Virus genome (UHGV): UHGV-0327824 | Reading direction: 5' to 3' (one strand) | Source: a virus | DNA length: 13,131 bases | The notes under the pieces: generated by a model | Databases searched by the model: none | Told to the model about the DNA's origin: nothing | What the model saw: only the letters and a program-made list of their open reading frames with translations | Shown: piece by piece, positions 402 to 13,131 of the stretch | Layout: each line of letters starts with the position of its first letter | Numbering within the stretch: the stretch's first letter is position 1 | Made by a program: the position numbers and the translations under genes

Positions 402-3224
402 ATGACGACAGAGTACATCAGGGACTGGCAACAACCGCGCCACGCAGTAGGACGTGAAGGAACGGAGATCCCCGCACCTGAATCCGCACTTTCCTCCTGG
501 CTGGATGCCTACCGGGCAGAGAACGAGCGCCGCCAGGAAATGGCTGATGCGGCGTTCTCCGCCACGCCGCTGGGCAACCTGATTAATAAAAGCCTGGACG
601 CACAGGAAAAACAGGACAAAACAATCACACTGGCAGGAGACGCCAGAAAACAGGCACGCGGCGCGGTAGATGAGGCCATGGCCTCACTGCGCCTGCTGCC
701 GTCCTATCTGCGCGATCCGCTTATTCGCCACCTCTCCTTCCTGCGCAAAAAACAGGAAGCCGATCGTCAGAAAGGAAAAAACGCCAGGCAGGCAGAACGC
801 TATGCGCGTGGGACCCTGCGCAAAATATTCGAACGTCTGGAGCGCACCGATCACCGCTGGCTGACATCGGGTTATCGCTCCCTTGCCGGACGTGAACGCC
901 TGGACGATTTGCTTTACCTGCCGCAACTCAACAAACACCAGATACAGACGCTGGCCACCATGACGGCGGCGATGTTCAGCAGCACCTTCGAAAAACTCTG
1001 CGATGGTTTTGGCGCGACTGATGGCGAGCTGACCATGGATGTAACGCTGAAGGTGTATCAGATGCTGGCCCGCATGGCATTACATCTGCACACCATGCCG
1101 CCACATTATGACGCACTGACAACAGACAAAGACCGGAGGAACGAACCAGACACGGAGCTGCTGCCGGGCGCAATTCTTCGCCTGACCTGTGCGGAATGGT
1201 GGAAGCGCAAACTGTGGCTTTTACGTTGCGAGTGGCGGGAAGAACAACTCCGCGCCGCCTGTCTGGTTTCCAGAAAAACATCGCCCTATCTGAGCCAGGA
1301 CGCGTTAAGCGAGTTTCGCGCACAGCGCGAGAAAACACGCGATTTCCTGAAAAGTTTCATGCTGGAAAACGAAGACGGGTTCACGATTGATCTCGAGACA
1401 GTGTATTACGCGGGAGTAAGTAACCCGGTTCACCGTAAGGCAGAAATGATGGCCACCATGAAGGGGCTGGAACTTCTGGCCGAAGCCCGTGGCGACAAAG
1501 CGGTGTTTCTGACTGTCACCTGCCCGTCAAAATACCACGCCACAACAGAGAACGGTCATCCGAATCCCAAATGGAACGGGGCCACCATGCGCGACTCCAG
1601 CGATTATCTGGTTAACACGTTTTTTGCGGCGGTCCGCAAAAAACTGAACCGCGACGGCCTGCGCTGGTATGGCATCCGCACGGTGGAGCCTCACCATGAC
1701 GGCACCGTGCACTGGCATATGATGGTCTTTGCTCATCCGGAAGAAATCGACAGCATCGTGGCCATCACCCGCGATATTGCCATTCAGGAAGACCGCCACG
1801 AGCTGGGCAATGATATTACTCCGCGCTTTAAGGTGGAGTATGTCGACGGCTCAAAAGGCACACCAACCAGCTATATCGCGACCTACATCGGAAAAAACCT
1901 GGACAGCCGCGCCGTCGATGGCATCGACCCGAAAACGGGCAAGCCACGCGTTGACCACGAAACCGGAAAATCAATGGCCGAGAGCGTGGAGCGCGCCATC
2001 GGCTGGGCGCGCCTTCACCGGGTCCGTCAGTTCCAGTTCTTTGGCATCCCCTCCCGTCAGGTGTGGCGTGAACTGCGCCGCCTTGCCAGCCAGATGGCAC
2101 GCAATCCGGAAGGCCCGCAACGGCTGAAAGATGATGCAATGGATGCGGTACTCGCTGCCGCCGATGCCGGGTGTTTTGCCTCCTACATTGAAAAACAGGG
2201 TGGCGTGCTTGTTCCACGCAAGGACTACCTGATTCGCACCGCCTACGACCTCGCAGATGAGCTGAACGATTACGGCGAACAGAGCGTACAGATTTACGGG
2301 ATCTGGTCACCACTCATCGGGGAATCCTCCCGTGTGTGCACGCATCCGGATAACTGGAAGTTGGTAAGACGTAAACCAGAACCAGAAGACAACGCCCACG
2401 AAAATGGTTTTGACCTTCAGGGCGGCCCTGCCGCCCCTTGGACTCGTGGCAATAACTGTCCCCGTGTACAGGAAACGGACAACAACGGGACAGAACAGCC
2501 GGAAGAACGGCCAGCACCGTGGCCGCAGCTTCCTGACGGCGTTGACGTGAACGAATGGATGCGCTCACTGAAACGGCACGAACGCCGGGCGCTGATGCGT
2601 TCGCTGCGTGACAAACAGGCAAAAAACAGCAGTGATGGAATGCAGAGCTGGACACAGAGCCGCAAACAGCAGCGGCCTTTGCCTGATAACCACGAATTAC
2701 TCGCTAAAGAATGGCGGGAATCTGCCGAATCTCTCGGCCTGCATATCGGTGAACAGCAGATGCAGCACCTGTTACGGGGCGGCAGCCTGTACGTTGACGG
2801 CAGCATCATTGCACCGCAGGGATTTGAAATTGTACGCAAACCGGATACCCGCCCGGACAGCCGAATCACGCAGCTCTGGCAGCGCCTGAGCCGTAATCAC
2901 GGCGTAAGCAGCACGGAGATCCGCCATAACCCGGTCGCCAGCTATCTGGAACAGCTGGGGGCATCAGACCCCGAAGCCGCCGCACGTCTGGCATCCACAC
3001 TTCAGCAGGACCAGAACACCATGACCCCCCCCGTTACCGTGCTTTCTGACATGCTGCGCGCCATCCGCGACGCAGAGCACGCACAGAGAATCAGTGAAAC
3101 CACTGAACGTGCCCGCCGCAAAGCAGACCTGCTGCGGGGTGGCCTGACCAGTGGAAACAAAAAACAGACAGAAACGGGATTCACAAATCCCGTAAATGAG
3201 CAAAAAACGCGCCGCGATATATGA
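402..3224 (+). CDS. A: P2 gpA-family rolling-circle replication initiation endonuclease (940 aa)
   Basis: Translation contains a HUH-type motif (VHWHMMVF) followed by paired tyrosines (YIATYIGKN), as in P2/186 gpA. Context supports it: Ogr, D, FI, FII, E in the same window. About 180 aa longer than P2 gpA as I recall it (about 761 aa). Confidence 0.88.
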   Translation: MTTEYIRDWQQPRHAVGREGTEIPAPESALSSWLDAYRAENERRQEMADAAFSATPLGNLINKSLDAQEKQDKTITLAGDARKQARGAVDEAMASLRLLPSYLRDPLIRHLSFLRKKQEADRQKGKNARQAERYARGTLRKIFERLERTDHRWLTSGYRSLAGRERLDDLLYLPQLNKHQIQTLATMTAAMFSSTFEKLCDGFGATDGELTMDVTLKVYQMLARMALHLHTMPPHYDALTTDKDRRNEPDTELLPGAILRLTCAEWWKRKLWLLRCEWREEQLRAACLVSRKTSPYLSQDALSEFRAQREKTRDFLKSFMLENEDGFTIDLETVYYAGVSNPVHRKAEMMATMKGLELLAEARGDKAVFLTVTCPSKYHATTENGHPNPKWNGATMRDSSDYLVNTFFAAVRKKLNRDGLRWYGIRTVEPHHDGTVHWHMMVFAHPEEIDSIVAITRDIAIQEDRHELGNDITPRFKVEYVDGSKGTPTSYIATYIGKNLDSRAVDGIDPKTGKPRVDHETGKSMAESVERAIGWARLHRVRQFQFFGIPSRQVWRELRRLASQMARNPEGPQRLKDDAMDAVLAAADAGCFASYIEKQGGVLVPRKDYLIRTAYDLADELNDYGEQSVQIYGIWSPLIGESSRVCTHPDNWKLVRRKPEPEDNAHENGFDLQGGPAAPWTRGNNCPRVQETDNNGTEQPEERPAPWPQLPDGVDVNEWMRSLKRHERRALMRSLRDKQAKNSSDGMQSWTQSRKQQRPLPDNHELLAKEWRESAESLGLHIGEQQMQHLLRGGSLYVDGSIIAPQGFEIVRKPDTRPDSRITQLWQRLSRNHGVSSTEIRHNPVASYLEQLGASDPEAAARLASTLQQDQNTMTPPVTVLSDMLRAIRDAEHAQRISETTERARRKADLLRGGLTSGNKKQTETGFTNPVNEQKTRRDI
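3172..3196. promoter_or_regulatory. Palindromic site copy 1 (AAACGGGATTCACAAATCCCGTAAA), inside the 3' end of gene A
   Basis: Arms ACGGGAT / ATCCCGT are exact reverse complements with a 6 nt spacer; a near-identical copy lies 73 bp downstream. Confidence 0.45.
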
Positions 3225-8986: not shown

Positions 8987-10170
8987 CAGGCACCTCCCAG
9001 CACCGCAAATGCGGGACCAAAGAATTCATCAGTAAACGACTGGTAAAGCTCCATGTCTTCCAGCGGGGGAACTGGCGTATATTTGTAGCGAATACGCACA
9101 CGTCCCTGACGTAAACCCGTGGTGCTGTTATCCACCACGTCATACCAGCACTCCGCGCCAATCAGTTTCCCGGCAGTAACCAGTGAATCCAGTTTTGCCC
9201 TGATGGCACTGATAACATCCTTCACGTTCGCAGGCGTCAGTGGACTGTCGATGGTTTCAAACTGCGCTTCCGCAATTGAATCAGCCAGCACCTGTGCGGT
9301 TCGGGTATACACCTCAAAGATGTAGGCGTTCGTTTCCGGTGTGCGGTTGCCCCAGAAGCGGAACCCGTTACGACGAATAATGGTCGTGATTTCTTTGTTG
9401 TTAAGGCTGTTGGCATCGCTGTCTTCGGCCTGCAACGACCAGAACACATGCCGGGACATCCCCAGCACATTTTTAACCGGAACGTTGGACAGTGATTTGT
9501 GCCAGCCCTGCTCATGGTCAATGTACGCACGAAGGCCGCACGCATAAGCAGGCGCGGGGAACGTTTCGTTTTTGCCACTTTTCGGGTTGTAGGCGATGAA
9601 GTCCGGCCATAAGAGCATCACCTCACGTTCGTTGAATTTCTGGCGGTAGGTAATTGCCTCTGCCATCGTGTTACAGCCATGACATGAGGCATACACAAAC
9701 GCGCGCAGTTTACCCGCAATCACGCACAGGGATTTTGTCACCGCCTCCGTGTCCAGCTCCGGCGCGGCCAGAATACGCGGACGGTATCCGATGCTTTCAT
9801 CCTGCTCTGCAACAAGCAGCGCATACATCCCCGTATAGCTGCCGTCAGATTCAGAACCACCGATAACCAGTTGATCCTGCGTCTTTCCGTTTTCTTCTTT
9901 GTGTTCAGCCACGCGAACGACGATCACCTTTGTGCTCACCTGGTCTGCGATGGCCTTAAGCGCACGATAAAGCGTCCCCGTTGTCCCGCATTTTCCCAGC
10001 ACGTCATTGACGCGGGTCAGCAGTGTGGGCTTGTTCAGCGGGAACAGCTTCGCGTCCGCATCATCCGCCGTTGCCACGATACCGATAACGCTGGAATCAA
10101 CATCGTTAATCGCTGTTACCAGGTCGGTACTTTCCGTAACACGGGCACCATGAAAACGAGTTTCACTCAT
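8986..10170 (-). CDS. FI: Contractile tail sheath protein, P2 gpFI-like (394 aa)
   Basis: Size matches P2 FI (about 396 aa). First gene of the FI-FII-E-T block, coupled to FII. Confidence 0.88.
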   Translation of the reverse strand: MSETRFHGARVTESTDLVTAINDVDSSVIGIVATADDADAKLFPLNKPTLLTRVNDVLGKCGTTGTLYRALKAIADQVSTKVIVVRVAEHKEENGKTQDQLVIGGSESDGSYTGMYALLVAEQDESIGYRPRILAAPELDTEAVTKSLCVIAGKLRAFVYASCHGCNTMAEAITYRQKFNEREVMLLWPDFIAYNPKSGKNETFPAPAYACGLRAYIDHEQGWHKSLSNVPVKNVLGMSRHVFWSLQAEDSDANSLNNKEITTIIRRNGFRFWGNRTPETNAYIFEVYTRTAQVLADSIAEAQFETIDSPLTPANVKDVISAIRAKLDSLVTAGKLIGAECWYDVVDNSTTGLRQGRVRIRYKYTPVPPLEDMELYQSFTDEFFGPAFAVLGGA

Positions 10171-10327
10171 AGCTTCAGCCCCTTGTATCCGTTAAATGAT
10201 TCGGCAACAATCATCACCCACCACGCGCGTAATCTCACCCCTGCGCCGTTCTCCCGCCACGGCGACAACAAAAAGCAGTAACCCCCTCCGCACGCACATG
10301 CGACCATGCCGCACAGGGAGGGAGCAG

Positions 10328-11437: not shown

Positions 11438-11477
11438 GCAACTTAGAATAGGCAGCACCACGTTAAGGGAGGTCGCT

Positions 11478-11738
11478 ATGTTCCGTTGTCCGCTTTGTGG
11501 CGCATCTGCCCGTATCCGCACCAGTCGTCCGGAAAATGATTCAAACACCGTGCGGCAAAAGTATTACCAGTGTAACAATCTGGAATGCGGCGTATGCTTC
11601 TCAACACTGGAAGCTTTCCATAAATTCACATCAAAACACGCCTCCGGCGTTCACTCTTCAGAAGGTATCCCGTGGCATGAGCTGCCAGCTTCACACAGGG
11701 GAAACAATCAGATGAGTTTGCCTTTATCTCAGAATTAA
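11478..11738 (+). CDS. ogr: Ogr/Delta-family zinc-finger late transcription activator (86 aa)
   Basis: N-terminus MFRCPLCGASARIRTSR...YYQCNNLECGVCF matches P2 Ogr (MFHCPLCQHAAHARTSR...YHQCQNVNCSATF) with the C-x2-C...C-x4-C zinc finger. RBS AAGGGAGG before the ATG. Confidence 0.88.
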   Translation: MFRCPLCGASARIRTSRPENDSNTVRQKYYQCNNLECGVCFSTLEAFHKFTSKHASGVHSSEGIPWHELPASHRGNNQMSLPLSQN

Positions 11739-11928
11739 CAGGCAGAATTGCCGGAGTAACAAAAAAGCGATAGATTACGCGCGGGTGCCTTTCGGCTGAT
11801 GGTCGGAGGGAATACCCGAAGGCCAGATGTGGAAAGGCCCCGGAAAACATTTCTGTTTAACCGAGGCCCTGACCATCTAACCTTAGCAAGTGATAGGTTA
11901 GCGCCTCCCTGAAAAAGGAGCAAGCGCT

Positions 11929-12069
11929 ATGTCGCAAAAATCGCTTATGGCCATCACGTTCTGCGTGACGGCAATCCTCATCATCTGGATGCTGCACGGT
12001 TCGCTGTGTGAAATACGGATGAGCTTCTGGGGAGCGGAGTTTGCGGCGTTCTTACAGTGTAAGCAGTAA
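11929..12069 (+). CDS. hok: Hok/Gef-family type I toxin (46 aa membrane peptide)
   Basis: MSQKSLMAITFCVTAILIIWMLHGSLCEIRMSFWGAEFAAFLQCKQ: hydrophobic TM segment, then SLCEIR and AAF as in Hok (..[27 protein letters not shown]). RBS AAGGAG 9 nt upstream. About 165 nt structured leader with a small upstream ORF (11799..11912); a stable hairpin follows the stop (12079..12100) and a terminator at 12159..12190. Below the ORF track's size cut-off. Confidence 0.7.
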   Translation: MSQKSLMAITFCVTAILIIWMLHGSLCEIRMSFWGAEFAAFLQCKQ

Positions 12070-12158
12070 GGAAACCGCGACGGGGGAGCAATCCCCCGTC
12101 AATCGGTTGCCAGGGTAAGGTCGATAAGGCACCCTATCTCACAGACATGAACAACAAA

Positions 12159-12190
12159 CCCGCAGCGTAAGAACTGCGGGTTTTCTTTTT
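12159..12190. terminator. Bidirectional intrinsic terminator between the hok-like locus (+) and the secreted-protein gene (-)
   Basis: Stem CCCGCAG / CTGCGGG with an 8 nt loop; TTTTCTTTTT on the plus strand and a T-rich tail (TTTGTTGTT) on the minus strand. Confidence 0.65.
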
Positions 12191-12258
12191 GGAACTATCA
12201 CTAGCTAGTGTACCGTTAACGGCACATAATGCTCGCACAACAAACCTGTTAAAAGAGA

Positions 12259-12540
12259 TTACTCAGCATTCTCCTGCTTCCATTGCCGGATCATTTCATC
12301 GGTAACATCACCCTCATAACATACCACGTCATACCCTCCATTACGGCTATATGCACTGCGTCCACCACATCTACTACCATTCCTTGCATGATTATAAGGA
12401 CACGCACAATTGCCTGGATAAGATTCAATGGATTCTTTAATTATTTCTTTTTTGATCTGAGCATCAGACTTTCCTGTTGCTGCATATCCGCTAAAAGATA
12501 CTAAACAAAGGCAGATTGCCATTAATAAACCACATCGCAT
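12259..12540 (-). CDS. Small secreted cysteine-containing protein of unknown function (93 aa precursor), AT-rich gene
   Basis: Start taken at the internal Met giving a signal peptide (MRCGLLMAICLCLVSFSGYAA | TGKSD). Mature part about 72 aa with four Cys (NCACPYN..RCGG..VCYEG). Markedly AT-rich against its surroundings. The ORF-track N-terminal extension to 12654 has no RBS. Confidence 0.55.
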   Translation of the reverse strand: MRCGLLMAICLCLVSFSGYAATGKSDAQIKKEIIKESIESYPGNCACPYNHARNGSRCGGRSAYSRNGGYDVVCYEGDVTDEMIRQWKQENAE

Positions 12541-12769
12541 ACCGATACACTCTATTACTAACCAATCATAGCCCACATCATAAAATCGAGATGAGGAGTA
12601 CAATACCTTTAACAAGAAGGTGTCATAACGATAATATGTCGTGCAATTCATCAAAAAAAAGATCTATATCAAAGAGATAGAACTCTTATCAGTGCTTCAG
12701 ACATCGGCATTCGAGGCAGCAGAAAAACAGTAAATCTGACGAATTTGCCTTTTCCCAAGATGTTGTCAG

Positions 12770-12926
12770 ATTAAAAAGATAGATTAGCGCAGGTACCTGT
12801 TGGTGGATTGCAGGAGGAAAAATGAAGTCGAGTGGAAAAATCCCAGAAAAATTTTTGTTTAACAGAGGTCCTGGCTCACTATGCGAAATACGGAGGAGCT
12901 GCAGAAGAATTCTGCTTCATCCTTAG
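12770..12926 (+). pseudogene. Deletion remnant of a second hok-type locus (leader fused to the hok C-terminal coding part)
   Basis: The leader is about 75-80% identical to the first locus's leader by eye (GATAGATTA.., ..TTTCTGTTTAACCGAGGCCCTG vs ..TTTTTGTTTAACAGAGGTCCTG), then jumps to sequence matching the hok 3' coding part (TCACTATGCGAAATACGGAGGAGCTG vs TCGCTGTGTGAAATACGGATGAGCTT). The TM-coding part is missing and the reading frame differs. Confidence 0.5.
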
Positions 12927-13012
12927 AGTTTAAACAGCACGTGCACTACCATTGTTTCTGCATATCGCCACACCATCGCCACTCAACCGCCATTGCACAA
13001 AATACAAATACG

Positions 13013-13034
13013 AAAAAACCACCCGAAGGTGGTT
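13013..13034 (-). terminator. Intrinsic terminator downstream of the tRNA gene (minus-strand transcript)
   Basis: Minus-strand reading: stem ACCACC / GGTGGT with loop TTCG, then TTTTTT; about 45 nt after the tRNA CCA end. Confidence 0.7.
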
Positions 13035-13078
13035 TCACGACACTGCTTATTGCTTTGATTTTATTCTTATCTTTCCCA

Positions 13079-13131
13079 TGGTACCCGGAGCGGGACTTGA
13101 ACCCGCACAGCGCGAACGCCGAGGGATTTTA
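13079..13131 (-). tRNA. leuZ: 3' portion of tRNA-Leu(UAA), leuZ-like; gene continues beyond the window end
   Basis: Reverse complement reads ..TAAAATCCCTCGGCGTTCGCGCTGTGCGGGTTCAAGTCCCGCTCCGGGTACCA: anticodon loop with UAA, a long class II variable arm, T-arm GGTTCAAGTCC, acceptor 3' strand and encoded CCA. Only about 53 nt are in the window. Confidence 0.85.

What the first reader, a model, noticed from the sequence alone, without database searches (positions are those of the whole stretch)
11799..12926. Two hok-type leaders in direct orientation flanking an AT-rich gene; second copy is a deletion derivative; shared FLFNRGP leader peptide
The leaders at 11765..11930 and 12770..12880 are clearly homologous. 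The second has lost about 150 bp (leader 3' end plus the hok TM coding part), fusing a leader ORF to the hok C-terminus (MKSSGKIPEKFLFNRGPGSLCEIRR..). Both leader ORFs encode FLFNRGP with only synonymous differences (ttc/ttt, cga/aga, ggc/ggt), hinting at a conserved leader peptide. The direct repeats bracket the secreted-protein gene and could mediate its deletion or mark a duplication-insertion event.
Basis: seen in the sequence. Interest (0 to 1): 0.5.

Follow-up and report, generated by a model that had tools for sequence, protein, structure and literature searches.

The report
Intact hok/sok plus decayed copy
At the end of a P2-like prophage in E. coli, a working-looking hok/sok toxin-antitoxin locus and a long-dead, internally deleted second copy sit on either side of a small phage cargo gene. 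The shared "FLFNRGP leader peptide" is a by-product of conserved RNA sequence, so the finding is ordinary.

Summary
Two homologous hok leaders lie in direct orientation, and the second copy (B) is a deletion derivative, missing 127 bp rather than about 150.

- **Setting.** The region is the attR arm of a P2/P88-like prophage integrated at tRNA-Leu leuZ. Order: ogr, intact hok/mok/sok locus A, terminator, AT-rich cargo gene (minus strand), relic B, 121-bp att repeat.
- **The peptide.** The FLFNRGP codons lie in the terminator hairpin of the antisense Sok RNA. Every intact hok locus examined keeps that hairpin, with different inner-stem sequences and different "peptides". All B copies have lost it.
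- **The leader ORF.** This is the Mok frame. Across 71 unique A-type copies it carries nonsynonymous polymorphism, early stops and frameshifts. In B orthologues the fused ORF is usually broken.
- **The B relic.** The deletion removed the Sok promoter, the Sok recognition tail, and the hok ribosome-binding site, start codon and membrane-helix codons. B is the fastest-diverging segment of the arm, so I read it as a pseudogene.
- **The repeats.** They are 72% identical, with a longest exact run of 10 bp. None of 5,426 complete E. coli genomes carries an A/B recombinant.

Ordinary, low interest.

The parts
11478..11738 (+). ogr (P2 late-gene activator). Context gene that marks the right arm of the prophage.
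   Evidence: Pfam Ogr_Delta, 52.4 bits. RefSeq annotation of the identical record.
11748..11776 (+). Inferred hok-A promoter: TTGCCG (11748-11753), 17-nt spacer, TAGATT (11771-11776). Transcript start about 11783.
   Evidence: Read from the sequence. The Rfam hok-leader model starts at 11783. The consensus scan did not flag this promoter.
11783..12134 (+). hok-A mRNA. The 5' element GGGUGCCUU (11783-11791) pairs with AAGGCACCC (12126-12134), a tac/fbi-type closure.
   Evidence: RF01794 match at 11783-11942, 42.7 bits, E = 1e-7, below the gathering score of 59. The fold of 11783-12140 gives -160 kcal/mol, z = -6.8, with the 5' end paired to the 3' end.
11799..11912 (+). It is 37 aa here because of TGA at 11910-11912. 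In most relatives the same frame runs 70-87 aa across hok.
   Evidence: ORF list. Translations of 71 unique A-type copies.
11828..11887 (-). Predicted Sok-A antisense RNA of about 60 nt: 5' tail (11887-11870), terminator hairpin (11869-11836), then UUUCC. The FLFNRGP codons (11850-11870) lie inside the hairpin.
   Evidence: Hairpin fold -27.5 kcal/mol, z = -4.3. Positional homology with the annotated sokC and sokB of K-12. Hairpin present in all intact relatives.
11895..11923 (-). Inferred Sok-A promoter: TTGCTC (11923-11918), 17-nt spacer, TAACCT (11900-11895).
   Evidence: It occupies the same position as TTGCCG-17-TAAGAT upstream of the annotated sokB start. The -10 hexamer is invariant and the -35 hexamer nearly so in 71 copies, while the spacer varies. 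It is weak by consensus and was not flagged by the scan.
11929..12069 (+). hok-A CDS, 46 aa, Hok/Gef family toxin.
   Evidence: Pfam HOK_GEF 30.2 bits, above the cut-off of 22. PHROG 251 'MokW-like host killing', E = 1.6e-22. RefSeq WP_000078910.1.
12156..12190 (.). Terminator-like hairpin on both strands, closing hok-A on one side and the convergent cargo gene on the other. Homology to phage P88 ends at 12190.
   Evidence: Terminator scan. BLAST against P88.
12259..12540 (-). AT-rich cargo (moron) gene, 93 aa. It has a signal-peptide-like N-terminus and is Cys-rich. Function unknown.
   Evidence: PHROG 27544, E = 7e-58, unknown function. No Pfam match above cut-off and no NCBIfam match. GC 0.35-0.41. 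RefSeq WP_001303543.1.
12773..12937 (+). Relic hok/sok locus B: leader 12773-12873, deletion junction at 12873/12874, frameshifted hok C-terminal remnant 12874-12937. The fused ORF 12822-12926 lies within it.
   Evidence: Alignments. No RF01794 match even at E up to 10. Sok hairpin lost. Same junction in all 20 unique B variants, and ORF not conserved.
12941..13012 (.). Phage arm next to the att core, holding ATCGCCAC-type direct repeats. These are possibly integrase arm sites, which is an inference only.
   Evidence: Homologous stretch in L099, which lacks B. 88-94% conserved in the most diverged B-bearing lineage.
13013..13131 (-). attR: the 3' part of tRNA-Leu leuZ plus the 3'ETS-leuZ sequence. 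It is repeated at the other prophage end.
   Evidence: 121-bp repeat at 96.7% identity, located just past the integrase. K-12 homology starts at 13010 and covers 3'ETS-leuZ and leuZ.

Best explanation
**What it is.** The region is the attR-proximal arm of a P2-like (P88/Xuanwuvirus-like) prophage integrated at the 3' end of tRNA-Leu leuZ.

**Locus A** is a complete hok/mok/sok type I toxin-antitoxin module of the canonical kind.
- The hok mRNA is locked by pairing of its 5' end with its 3' end.
- A Mok frame has to be translated for Hok to be made.
- A roughly 60-nt antisense Sok RNA has a 5' tail that pairs with the leader and a 3' hairpin that acts as its terminator.
- The 'FLFNRGP' codons are the DNA of that Sok terminator hairpin. 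Their conservation is at the RNA level, not the peptide level.

**Locus B** is an old paralogous hok/sok locus that died by a single 127-bp deletion.
- The deletion removed, together, the Sok promoter, the Sok recognition tail, and the hok ribosome-binding site, start codon and first 23 codons.
- A deletion that disables toxin and antitoxin at once is the kind a cell can survive.
- B has since drifted. It gained a frameshift in the C-terminal part, lost the Sok hairpin, has no 3' UTR (fbi) counterpart, and its ORF is broken in orthologues.

**Between A and B** sits a phage cargo gene in a slot whose content differs between related prophages. The two hok copies are too diverged to recombine at a detectable rate.

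**Shown:** homology, the deletion, the hairpin pattern, the population counts and the att boundaries.
**Inferred:** the Sok promoter and transcript start, that A is active, and that B is non-functional.
For: **Context**
- The window is 100% identical to E. coli TW10598. P88 homology runs to 12190 and K-12 homology starts at 13010.
- A 121-bp att repeat bounds the element, so B and the cargo gene lie inside it.

**Locus A**
- Pfam HOK_GEF above cut-off. RF01794 E = 1e-7.
- The mRNA fold has z = -6.8 with the 5' and 3' ends paired.
- The Sok hairpin folds at -27.5 kcal/mol, z = -4.3.
- Annotated sokC and sokB of K-12 map to the homologous leader positions.

**Hairpin, not peptide**
- The antisense hairpin folds at -22 to -30 kcal/mol in A variants, L099up, an Stx phage, hokC and hokB, with different inner stems. 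It is more stable on the antisense strand than on the sense strand.
- The Mok frame is polymorphic, truncated or frameshifted among 71 copies.

**Locus B**
- The deletion junction is identical in 20 unique variants.
- The hairpin is lost, at -4.7 to -11.7 kcal/mol.
- The ORF is broken in 13 of 19 other variants.
- In the most diverged lineage the relic is 82-84% identical to the window, against 93-97% for the adjacent cargo gene, the cargo upstream region and locus A.

**Repeats**
- Longest exact run 10 bp. 0 of 5,426 genomes hold the recombinant junction.

**Cargo slot**
- The cargo differs in L009.
Against: - Rfam's sok model scores A below its gathering threshold (42.7 against 59).
- The proposed Sok and hok promoters match the consensus poorly (about 6 of 12 for Sok) and were not flagged by the scan.
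- In this window's copy the Mok frame stops 17 nt before the hok start codon. PMC9841398 reports that premature mok stops suppress R1 hok toxicity, so A may be attenuated.
- The same deletion derivative B has persisted in lineages up to about 18% diverged. That could be read as retention, although it sits next to the att arm, where loss may be constrained.
- No sequenced phage record contains 12193-13009, so packaging of B in virions is not shown.
- No expression data were available.
Confidence: 0.85

Rival explanations
1. Relic B is retained by selection as a functional element rather than a pseudogene. Possible roles are a residual promoter or small ORF, an RNA decoy for Sok-like RNAs, part of the attP arm needed for integration or excision, or the conserved right-hand homology anchor that lets P2-like phages exchange cargo genes.
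For: - The same deletion derivative is present in 688 of 5,426 E. coli genomes, in three sequence groups as low as about 82-86% identity.
- It always lies next to the leuZ att.
- The strong ribosome-binding site plus ATG at 12812-12824 and the first 8-10 codons (MK[S/L]SGKIPEK) persist in most variants.
- The cargo between A and B differs in L009, while the 70 bp upstream of B and B itself are kept.
Against: - B is the most diverged segment of the arm.
- Its ORF is frameshifted or truncated in most variants, and the start codon is lost in the O157 type.
- The Sok hairpin has decayed and the Sok promoter and tail are deleted.
- A related leuZ-integrating element (L099/L100) has no B at all and keeps only the last roughly 60 bp of the arm.
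- No Rfam family matches B.
Confidence: 0.08
2. FLFNRGP is a conserved functional leader peptide of hok loci, and the two direct repeats mediate deletion of the intervening gene or mark a recent duplication-insertion.
For: - All three nucleotide differences within the 21 nt are synonymous in the window's two copies.
- The repeats do flank the cargo gene in direct orientation.
Against: - About 27% of single-base changes in these codons would be synonymous. Three out of three therefore has a chance of about 2% before allowing for picking the window after the fact, and a second frame is equally 'conserved'.
- The peptide varies within A-type copies and is absent from other intact hok leaders that keep the hairpin.
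- B orthologues are frameshifted through it.
- The repeats are 72% identical with at most 10-bp exact runs.
- There are no recombinants in 5,426 genomes.
- A and B are about 28% diverged, so a duplication, if there was one, is ancient.
Confidence: 0.03
3. B and the cargo gene are not part of the present prophage. They are the right-end scar of an earlier P2-like prophage that occupied leuZ, joined to the present prophage by deletion or recombination between tandem elements.
For: - The leuZ-yecA site accretes elements in tandem. TW10598 has three att copies, with a roughly 39-kb defence island beyond the prophage.
- No sequenced phage record holds 12193-13009.
- P88-type phages share the arm only up to 12142-12192.
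Against: - No att copy lies between A and B.
- The cargo gene belongs to a phage protein family, PHROG 27544.
- The A-cargo-B-att arrangement recurs in many prophage contigs and in three diverged lineages.
- Even if true, this only moves the origin of B back one step. B would still be a decayed hok locus in a P2-like right arm.
Confidence: 0.04

Closest known systems
hok/mok/sok of plasmid R1 (parB), the type I toxin-antitoxin paradigm
   Same: Locus A has the following features in common with R1 hok/mok/sok.
- A Hok/Gef toxin.
- A structured leader that matches Rfam's hok-leader model.
- 5'-3' (tac/fbi-type) closure of the mRNA.
- An overlapping Mok frame.
- An antisense RNA gene with a terminator hairpin at the homologous place.
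   Different: - Locus A is phage-borne rather than plasmid-borne.
- The leader is shorter, with the hok ATG at about +147 against about +174 in R1.
- The Mok frame starts far upstream (ATG 11799 or GTG 11829) rather than inside the target of the Sok tail.
- In this copy Mok stops before the hok start codon.
- The Rfam score is below the gathering threshold.
- Activity was not tested.
hok ('MokW-like host killing') loci of P2-like phages such as P88, Chuche and Xuanwuvirus P884B11, and hok loci of Stx phages
   Same: - The ogr-to-hok-to-terminator stretch of these P2-like phages is 95-98% identical to window 11440-12190.
- The Stx-phage hok locus is 82.6% identical to locus A.
- The enrichment of hok in prophages is described in bioRxiv 10.1101/2025.08.07.668861.
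   Different: - These phage records lack the AT-rich cargo gene and relic B.
- In the stretch of P88 examined beyond its hok terminator there is different cargo and no leuZ att sequence.
Inactive or decayed chromosomal hok loci of E. coli K-12 (hokA to hokE)
   Same: Relic B is another hok locus that is no longer a working toxin-antitoxin system. The literature regards chromosomal hok loci as largely inactive or degenerating (bioRxiv 10.1101/2025.08.07.668861, citing earlier work).
   Different: - B was inactivated by one internal 127-bp deletion that removed toxin start and antitoxin promoter together. By my recollection, unchecked here, the K-12 loci were inactivated by insertion elements or point changes.
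- B lies inside a prophage arm next to attR.
- B is unannotated in RefSeq (one search lists no features under it).
Tandem intact hok loci in a related leuZ-integrating P2-like element (loci L099 and L100)
   Same: Two hok loci lie in direct orientation between ogr and the leuZ att. They are about 75% identical to each other.
   Different: Both copies are intact there, there is no cargo gene between them, and neither is the orthologue of B.

Membership tests
[quoted passage not shown] | Encodes a Hok/Gef family toxin | tested here: met
   Pfam PF01848, 30.2 bits against a cut-off of 22. PHROG 251, E = 1.6e-22. NCBIfam HokA model matched only below its cut-off.
[quoted passage not shown] | Leader matches the hok mRNA / sok RNA family model (Rfam RF01794) | tested here: inconclusive
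   Full-length match to the model at 11783-11942, 42.7 bits, E = 1e-7, but below the gathering score of 59. K-12 hokC and hokB score 118 and 110 bits.
[quoted passage not shown] | Long-range 5'-3' pairing (tac/fbi) that closes the full-length mRNA | tested here: met
   In the minimum-energy fold, GGGUGCCUU (11783-11791) pairs with AAGGCACCC (12126-12134). Fold energy -160 kcal/mol, z = -6.8. This is in silico only.
[quoted passage not shown] | Antisense Sok gene with its own promoter and terminator hairpin opposite the leader | tested here: inconclusive
   The terminator hairpin is present and conserved. The promoter is placed only by positional homology with sokB and matches the consensus poorly. 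No transcript data.
[quoted passage not shown] | Mok reading frame that overlaps hok and is translationally coupled to it | tested here: inconclusive
   The frame exists and overlaps hok in most of 71 relatives, but stops at 11910-11912, 17 nt before the hok ATG, in this copy.
[quoted passage not shown] | Toxicity of Hok and repression by Sok (post-segregational killing) | not testable with these tools
   Needs experiments.
[quoted passage not shown] | Intact hok CDS with start codon and membrane helix | tested here: not met
   127 bp are missing, corresponding to A 11872-11998. That includes the ribosome-binding site, the ATG and 23 codons. There is also a frameshift in the C-terminal part.
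[quoted passage not shown] | Sok promoter, recognition tail and terminator hairpin | tested here: not met
   The promoter and 16 of the 18 tail bases fall in the deleted segment. The hairpin region folds at only -4.7 to -11.7 kcal/mol in all B variants. No RF01794 match at E up to 10.
Conserved functional leader peptide (sequence-dependent uORF peptide) | Amino-acid sequence conserved beyond what nucleotide conservation explains, with the frame and start kept across homologues | tested here: not met
   Nonsynonymous polymorphism, early stops and frameshifts among 71 A-type copies. Other intact hok leaders encode different peptides over the same hairpin. B orthologues are frameshifted.
Recombinogenic direct repeats flanking a deletable segment | Long enough identical stretches, and natural deletion products | tested here: not met
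   Longest exact run 10 bp. By established knowledge RecA needs roughly 20-30 bp of identity. 0 of 5,426 genomes carry the junction.
P2-like prophage integrated at a tRNA gene | Direct att repeats bounding the element, integrase next to one repeat, P2-type late genes | tested here: met
   121-bp repeat covering the leuZ 3' part, about 100 bp past the end of the integrase gene. D, ogr, capsid and terminase genes are annotated. 95-98% identity to P88-type phages.

The most novel reading that the evidence does not exclude
The dead hok copy B is not just drift. Together with the 3' end of hok-A it forms the two conserved 'bookends' of a cargo slot beside attP in leuZ-integrating P2-like phages, and is kept because it supplies the right-hand homology (or part of the att arm) through which morons are swapped between phages. 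A related possibility is that the hypervariable Sok tail and its target (11871-11886) reflect selection for mutually orthogonal hok/sok pairs, and that B is the loser of such an incompatibility between two co-resident loci.
Probability: 0.1. Interest if true: 0.35.

Novelty: new member of a known kind. Interest (0 to 1): 0.15.

Why it matters
The practical value is limited.
- It supplies an unannotated hok pseudogene. It also gives a clear map of hok mRNA, the Mok frame, Sok and attR for a prophage arm present in several hundred E. coli genomes, including O157:H7 and the 55989 lineage.
- It illustrates that apparent 'synonymous-only' conservation in a type I toxin leader can come from an antisense RNA gene rather than from a peptide.
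- It gives a tidy example of how a toxin-antitoxin locus can die safely, through one deletion that removes the toxin start and the antitoxin promoter together.

None of this changes current understanding of hok/sok.

Tried and rejected
- **Default MAFFT alignment of the two copies.** It misplaced the block after the deletion. Local alignment and BLAST fixed the junction.
- **Two genome contigs pattern scans.** One used a B-specific leader motif and the other an att-arm motif. Both found nothing, so no intact close relative of B was found outside E. coli.
- **Distant blastn of 12193-13009 against 50,697 phage records.** No match.
- **Distant blastn of B against E. coli genomes.** Apart from B copies themselves (full or partial), the listed hits were about 73-75% matches covering only the leader part. 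I took these to be A-type leaders, so no intact B-like parent turned up.
- **Consensus promoter scan.** It flagged neither the hok nor the Sok promoter. Both were therefore placed by eye and by positional homology only.
- **Single consensus structure on alignment A3.** I abandoned it because the inner stems of the hairpin are in different registers in different loci. I used per-sequence folds instead.
- **B as an orphan Sok (antitoxin-only) gene.** Considered and rejected, because the promoter and tail are deleted and the hairpin has decayed.
- **B closer to either hok of L099.** Considered and rejected.
Full report
**Where the window comes from.** Window 11440-13131 is 100% identical to E. 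coli TW10598. RefSeq annotates an ogr/Delta zinc-finger gene, a Hok/Gef gene, a hypothetical protein and tRNA-Leu, followed by tRNA-Cys, tRNA-Gly and pgsA. This is the glyW-cysT-leuZ operon. Isolated P2-like phages (P88, Chuche, Xuanwuvirus P884B11 and others) match the window at 95-98% only up to 12142-12192. K-12 matches only from 13010 onward, which covers the 3'ETS-leuZ sequence and leuZ.

A 121-bp direct repeat at 96.7% identity links window 13013-13131 with a site about 100 bp past the end of the prophage integrase gene. Everything up to 13012 therefore lies inside the att-bounded element, including the AT-rich gene and the second hok copy. The 817 bp between 12193 and 13009 occur in 618 of 5,426 complete E. 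coli genomes. In every locus I examined they lie next to leuZ, with a P2-like prophage or its remains. They occur in no sequenced phage record.

**Checking the observation.** The two leaders are homologous.
- A 11764-11871 aligns with B 12773-12873 at 72% over 108 columns (E = 8.5e-14).
- A 11998-12066 aligns with B 12873-12937 at 68% (E = 1.7e-6).
- B lacks A 11872-11998, which is 127 bp rather than about 150.
- B has a further 4-nt gap in the C-terminal part of hok.
- The fused ORF at 12822-12926 exists.
- FLFNRGP is encoded in both copies. The three differences (ctg/ttg, cga/aga, ggc/ggt) are synonymous.
- Upstream of these 7 codons the two ORFs are out of register because of a 1-nt indel. 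A second frame is just as 'conserved' (FCLTEAL against FCLTEVL).

**Locus A.**
- The CDS at 11929-12069 is a Hok/Gef protein: Pfam 30.2 bits against a cut-off of 22, and PHROG 'MokW-like host killing'.
- The leader matches Rfam RF01794 along the full model at E = 1e-7, although below the gathering score.
- The predicted full-length mRNA folds far better than shuffled controls (z = -6.8). Its 5' end GGGUGCCUU pairs with AAGGCACCC at 12126-12134, a tac/fbi-type closure.
- K-12 annotates sokC and sokB antisense to the homologous part of their leaders. Transferring those positions gives a Sok-A of about 60 nt on the minus strand. Its start is near 11887, its 18-nt tail covers 11887-11870, its hairpin covers 11869-11836, and UUUCC follows.
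- The inferred promoter is TTGCTC-17-TAACCT at 11923-11895, positionally homologous to TTGCCG-17-TAAGAT of sokB. This promoter is weak by consensus and the scan did not flag it, so it remains an inference.

**The 'leader peptide'.** A pattern scan of viral contigs, anchored in the hok coding region rather than in the leader, returned over 120 stretches. These gave 71 unique A-type copies.
- The ORF from ATG 11799 is the Mok-type frame. In most copies it runs 70-87 aa across hok. In this window it stops at TGA 11910.
- In 11 of 71 copies it stops at codon 7, and several copies are frameshifted.
- Within FLFNRGP the first F is F/S/L/Y/C, and there are L to M/P, N to T and P to T changes.

The codons 11850-11870 lie inside the Sok terminator hairpin.
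- On the antisense strand this hairpin folds at -22 to -30 kcal/mol in A variants, the upstream hok of L099, an Stx-phage hok, and K-12 hokC and hokB.
- The outer stem is conserved (GGCCUCGG / CCGGGGCC). The inner stems have different sequences but remain paired.
- The hairpin is markedly more stable on the antisense strand than on the sense strand, which points to selection on Sok.
- Those loci encode unrelated peptides over the same stretch, for example VNLNVNPRP.

**Locus B.**
- The deletion removed the Sok promoter, 16 of the 18 tail bases, and the hok ribosome-binding site, ATG and 23 codons.
- B has no 3' UTR (fbi) counterpart, no Rfam match even at E up to 10, and no Sok hairpin.
- Twenty unique B variants share exactly the same junction, so there was one old deletion.
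- The variants fall into three groups at roughly 99%, 92-95% and 82-86% identity.
- The fused ORF is intact only in window-like variants. It is frameshifted in 4 variants and truncated to 8-13 aa in 9, and its ATG is ATA in the O157 type.
- In the most diverged lineage the relic is 82-84% identical to the window. The figures for the same loci are 95-97% for the cargo CDS, 93-94% for the cargo upstream region, 94-96% for locus A and 88-94% for the att arm.

B is therefore the least constrained piece of this arm, which is how a pseudogene behaves.

**Do the repeats do anything?** The longest exact run shared by A and B is 10 bp. That is well below what RecA-dependent recombination needs, by established knowledge roughly 20-30 bp. 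A chimeric query joining the A leader to the B tail found no genome with 80% or more coverage among 5,426.

A and B are about 28% diverged, so they are old paralogues rather than a recent duplication. A related leuZ-integrating element (L099/L100) carries two intact tandem hok loci about 75% identical to each other. It has no cargo gene between them and no B. Two hok loci between ogr and attP is thus a recurring layout, and in the window's lineage the att-proximal one has decayed.

The content between A and B is replaceable. In strain CREC-591 a zinc-ribbon gene and a TagO-like gene replace window 12145-12669.

**The gene in between.** Window 12259-12540 on the minus strand encodes a 93-aa Cys-rich protein with a signal-peptide-like start. 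It belongs to PHROG 27544 (unknown function) and has no Pfam match above cut-off and no NCBIfam match. It converges on the terminator-like hairpin at 12156-12183, which the scan reports on both strands.

**Verdict.** The structural observation is correct and well above chance. The interesting parts of the interpretation, a conserved leader peptide and recombinogenic or recently duplicated repeats, are not supported. What is there is a known kind of phage-borne hok/sok locus plus an unannotated decayed paralogue flanking a moron slot at the attR end of a P2-like prophage. Interest is low.

Noticed in passing
window 13013-13131; L006 24754-24872; L134 25511-25629: The att repeat is the 3' part of leuZ plus the whole 3'ETS-leuZ small-RNA sequence. 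TW10598 holds three copies. One is leuZ-linked. One lies at the far end of the prophage (96.7% identical). One lies next to yecA (119 bp, 100% identical). The second and third copies are separated by a roughly 39-kb island with integrases, a type I restriction-modification system, DUF262 genes and Hhe. The leuZ-yecA site therefore accretes elements in tandem, and the phage supplies the 3'ETS copy that is co-transcribed with the tRNA operon.
   Followed up: partly
window 11871-11886: Among 71 unique A-type hok loci the most polymorphic positions cluster here, with at least six alleles. This is the predicted target of the Sok 5' recognition tail. The flanking hairpin and the -10 hexamer are almost invariant. 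This could reflect diversification of Sok/hok specificity between co-resident loci.
   Followed up: partly
window 11910-11912 and 11817: In this window's copy the Mok frame ends at TGA 11910, 17 nt before the hok ATG. Only 5 of 71 unique copies have T at 11910. Eleven of 71 copies have a stop at codon 7 instead (CGA to TGA at 11817). Whether such copies still translate Hok is unknown. GTG 11829, preceded by GAAGG, is an alternative Mok start.
   Followed up: partly
L099 (reverse-complement coordinates 2190-3100) and L100: A related P2-like element at leuZ has two intact hok loci in tandem after ogr, about 75% identical to each other. Each has its own leader (both hit RF01794 at about 40-43 bits) and its own terminator. 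They are followed by 167 bp and then the att sequence.
   Followed up: partly
L009 1038-2268 (E. coli CREC-591): The slot between hok-A and relic B holds a different cargo here: a zinc-ribbon protein and a 'type VI secretion-associated TagO' homologue on the plus strand. The swap boundaries correspond to window positions of about 12144/12145 and 12669/12670.
   Followed up: partly
L004 956-2871 (E. coli strain H3): A TIR-domain gene and a SIR2-family gene (a Thoeris-like defence pair) are inserted between gene D and ogr of the same type of prophage.
   Followed up: no
window about 9300-10200 (L001 656-1731): The prophage in this window looks defective. RefSeq marks the tail-sheath gene and a tail gene as partial, and the lysis genes abut the truncated sheath gene, so most of the tail genes seem to be missing.
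   Followed up: no
window 12259-12540 (minus strand): The AT-rich cargo protein is Cys-rich, with 6 Cys after the signal-like segment. Its only Pfam hit is a weak sub-threshold match to Sclerostin (18 bits against a cut-off of 27), probably a cysteine-pattern artefact. It is present in 618 E. coli genomes including O157:H7. Function unknown.
   Followed up: no
L010 2501-2688 (E. coli EC13): Here an IS1 element abuts a truncated relic B (only the part matching window 12824-13011) next to leuZ, with no prophage left. The relic can therefore survive as the last scar of the element.
   Followed up: no
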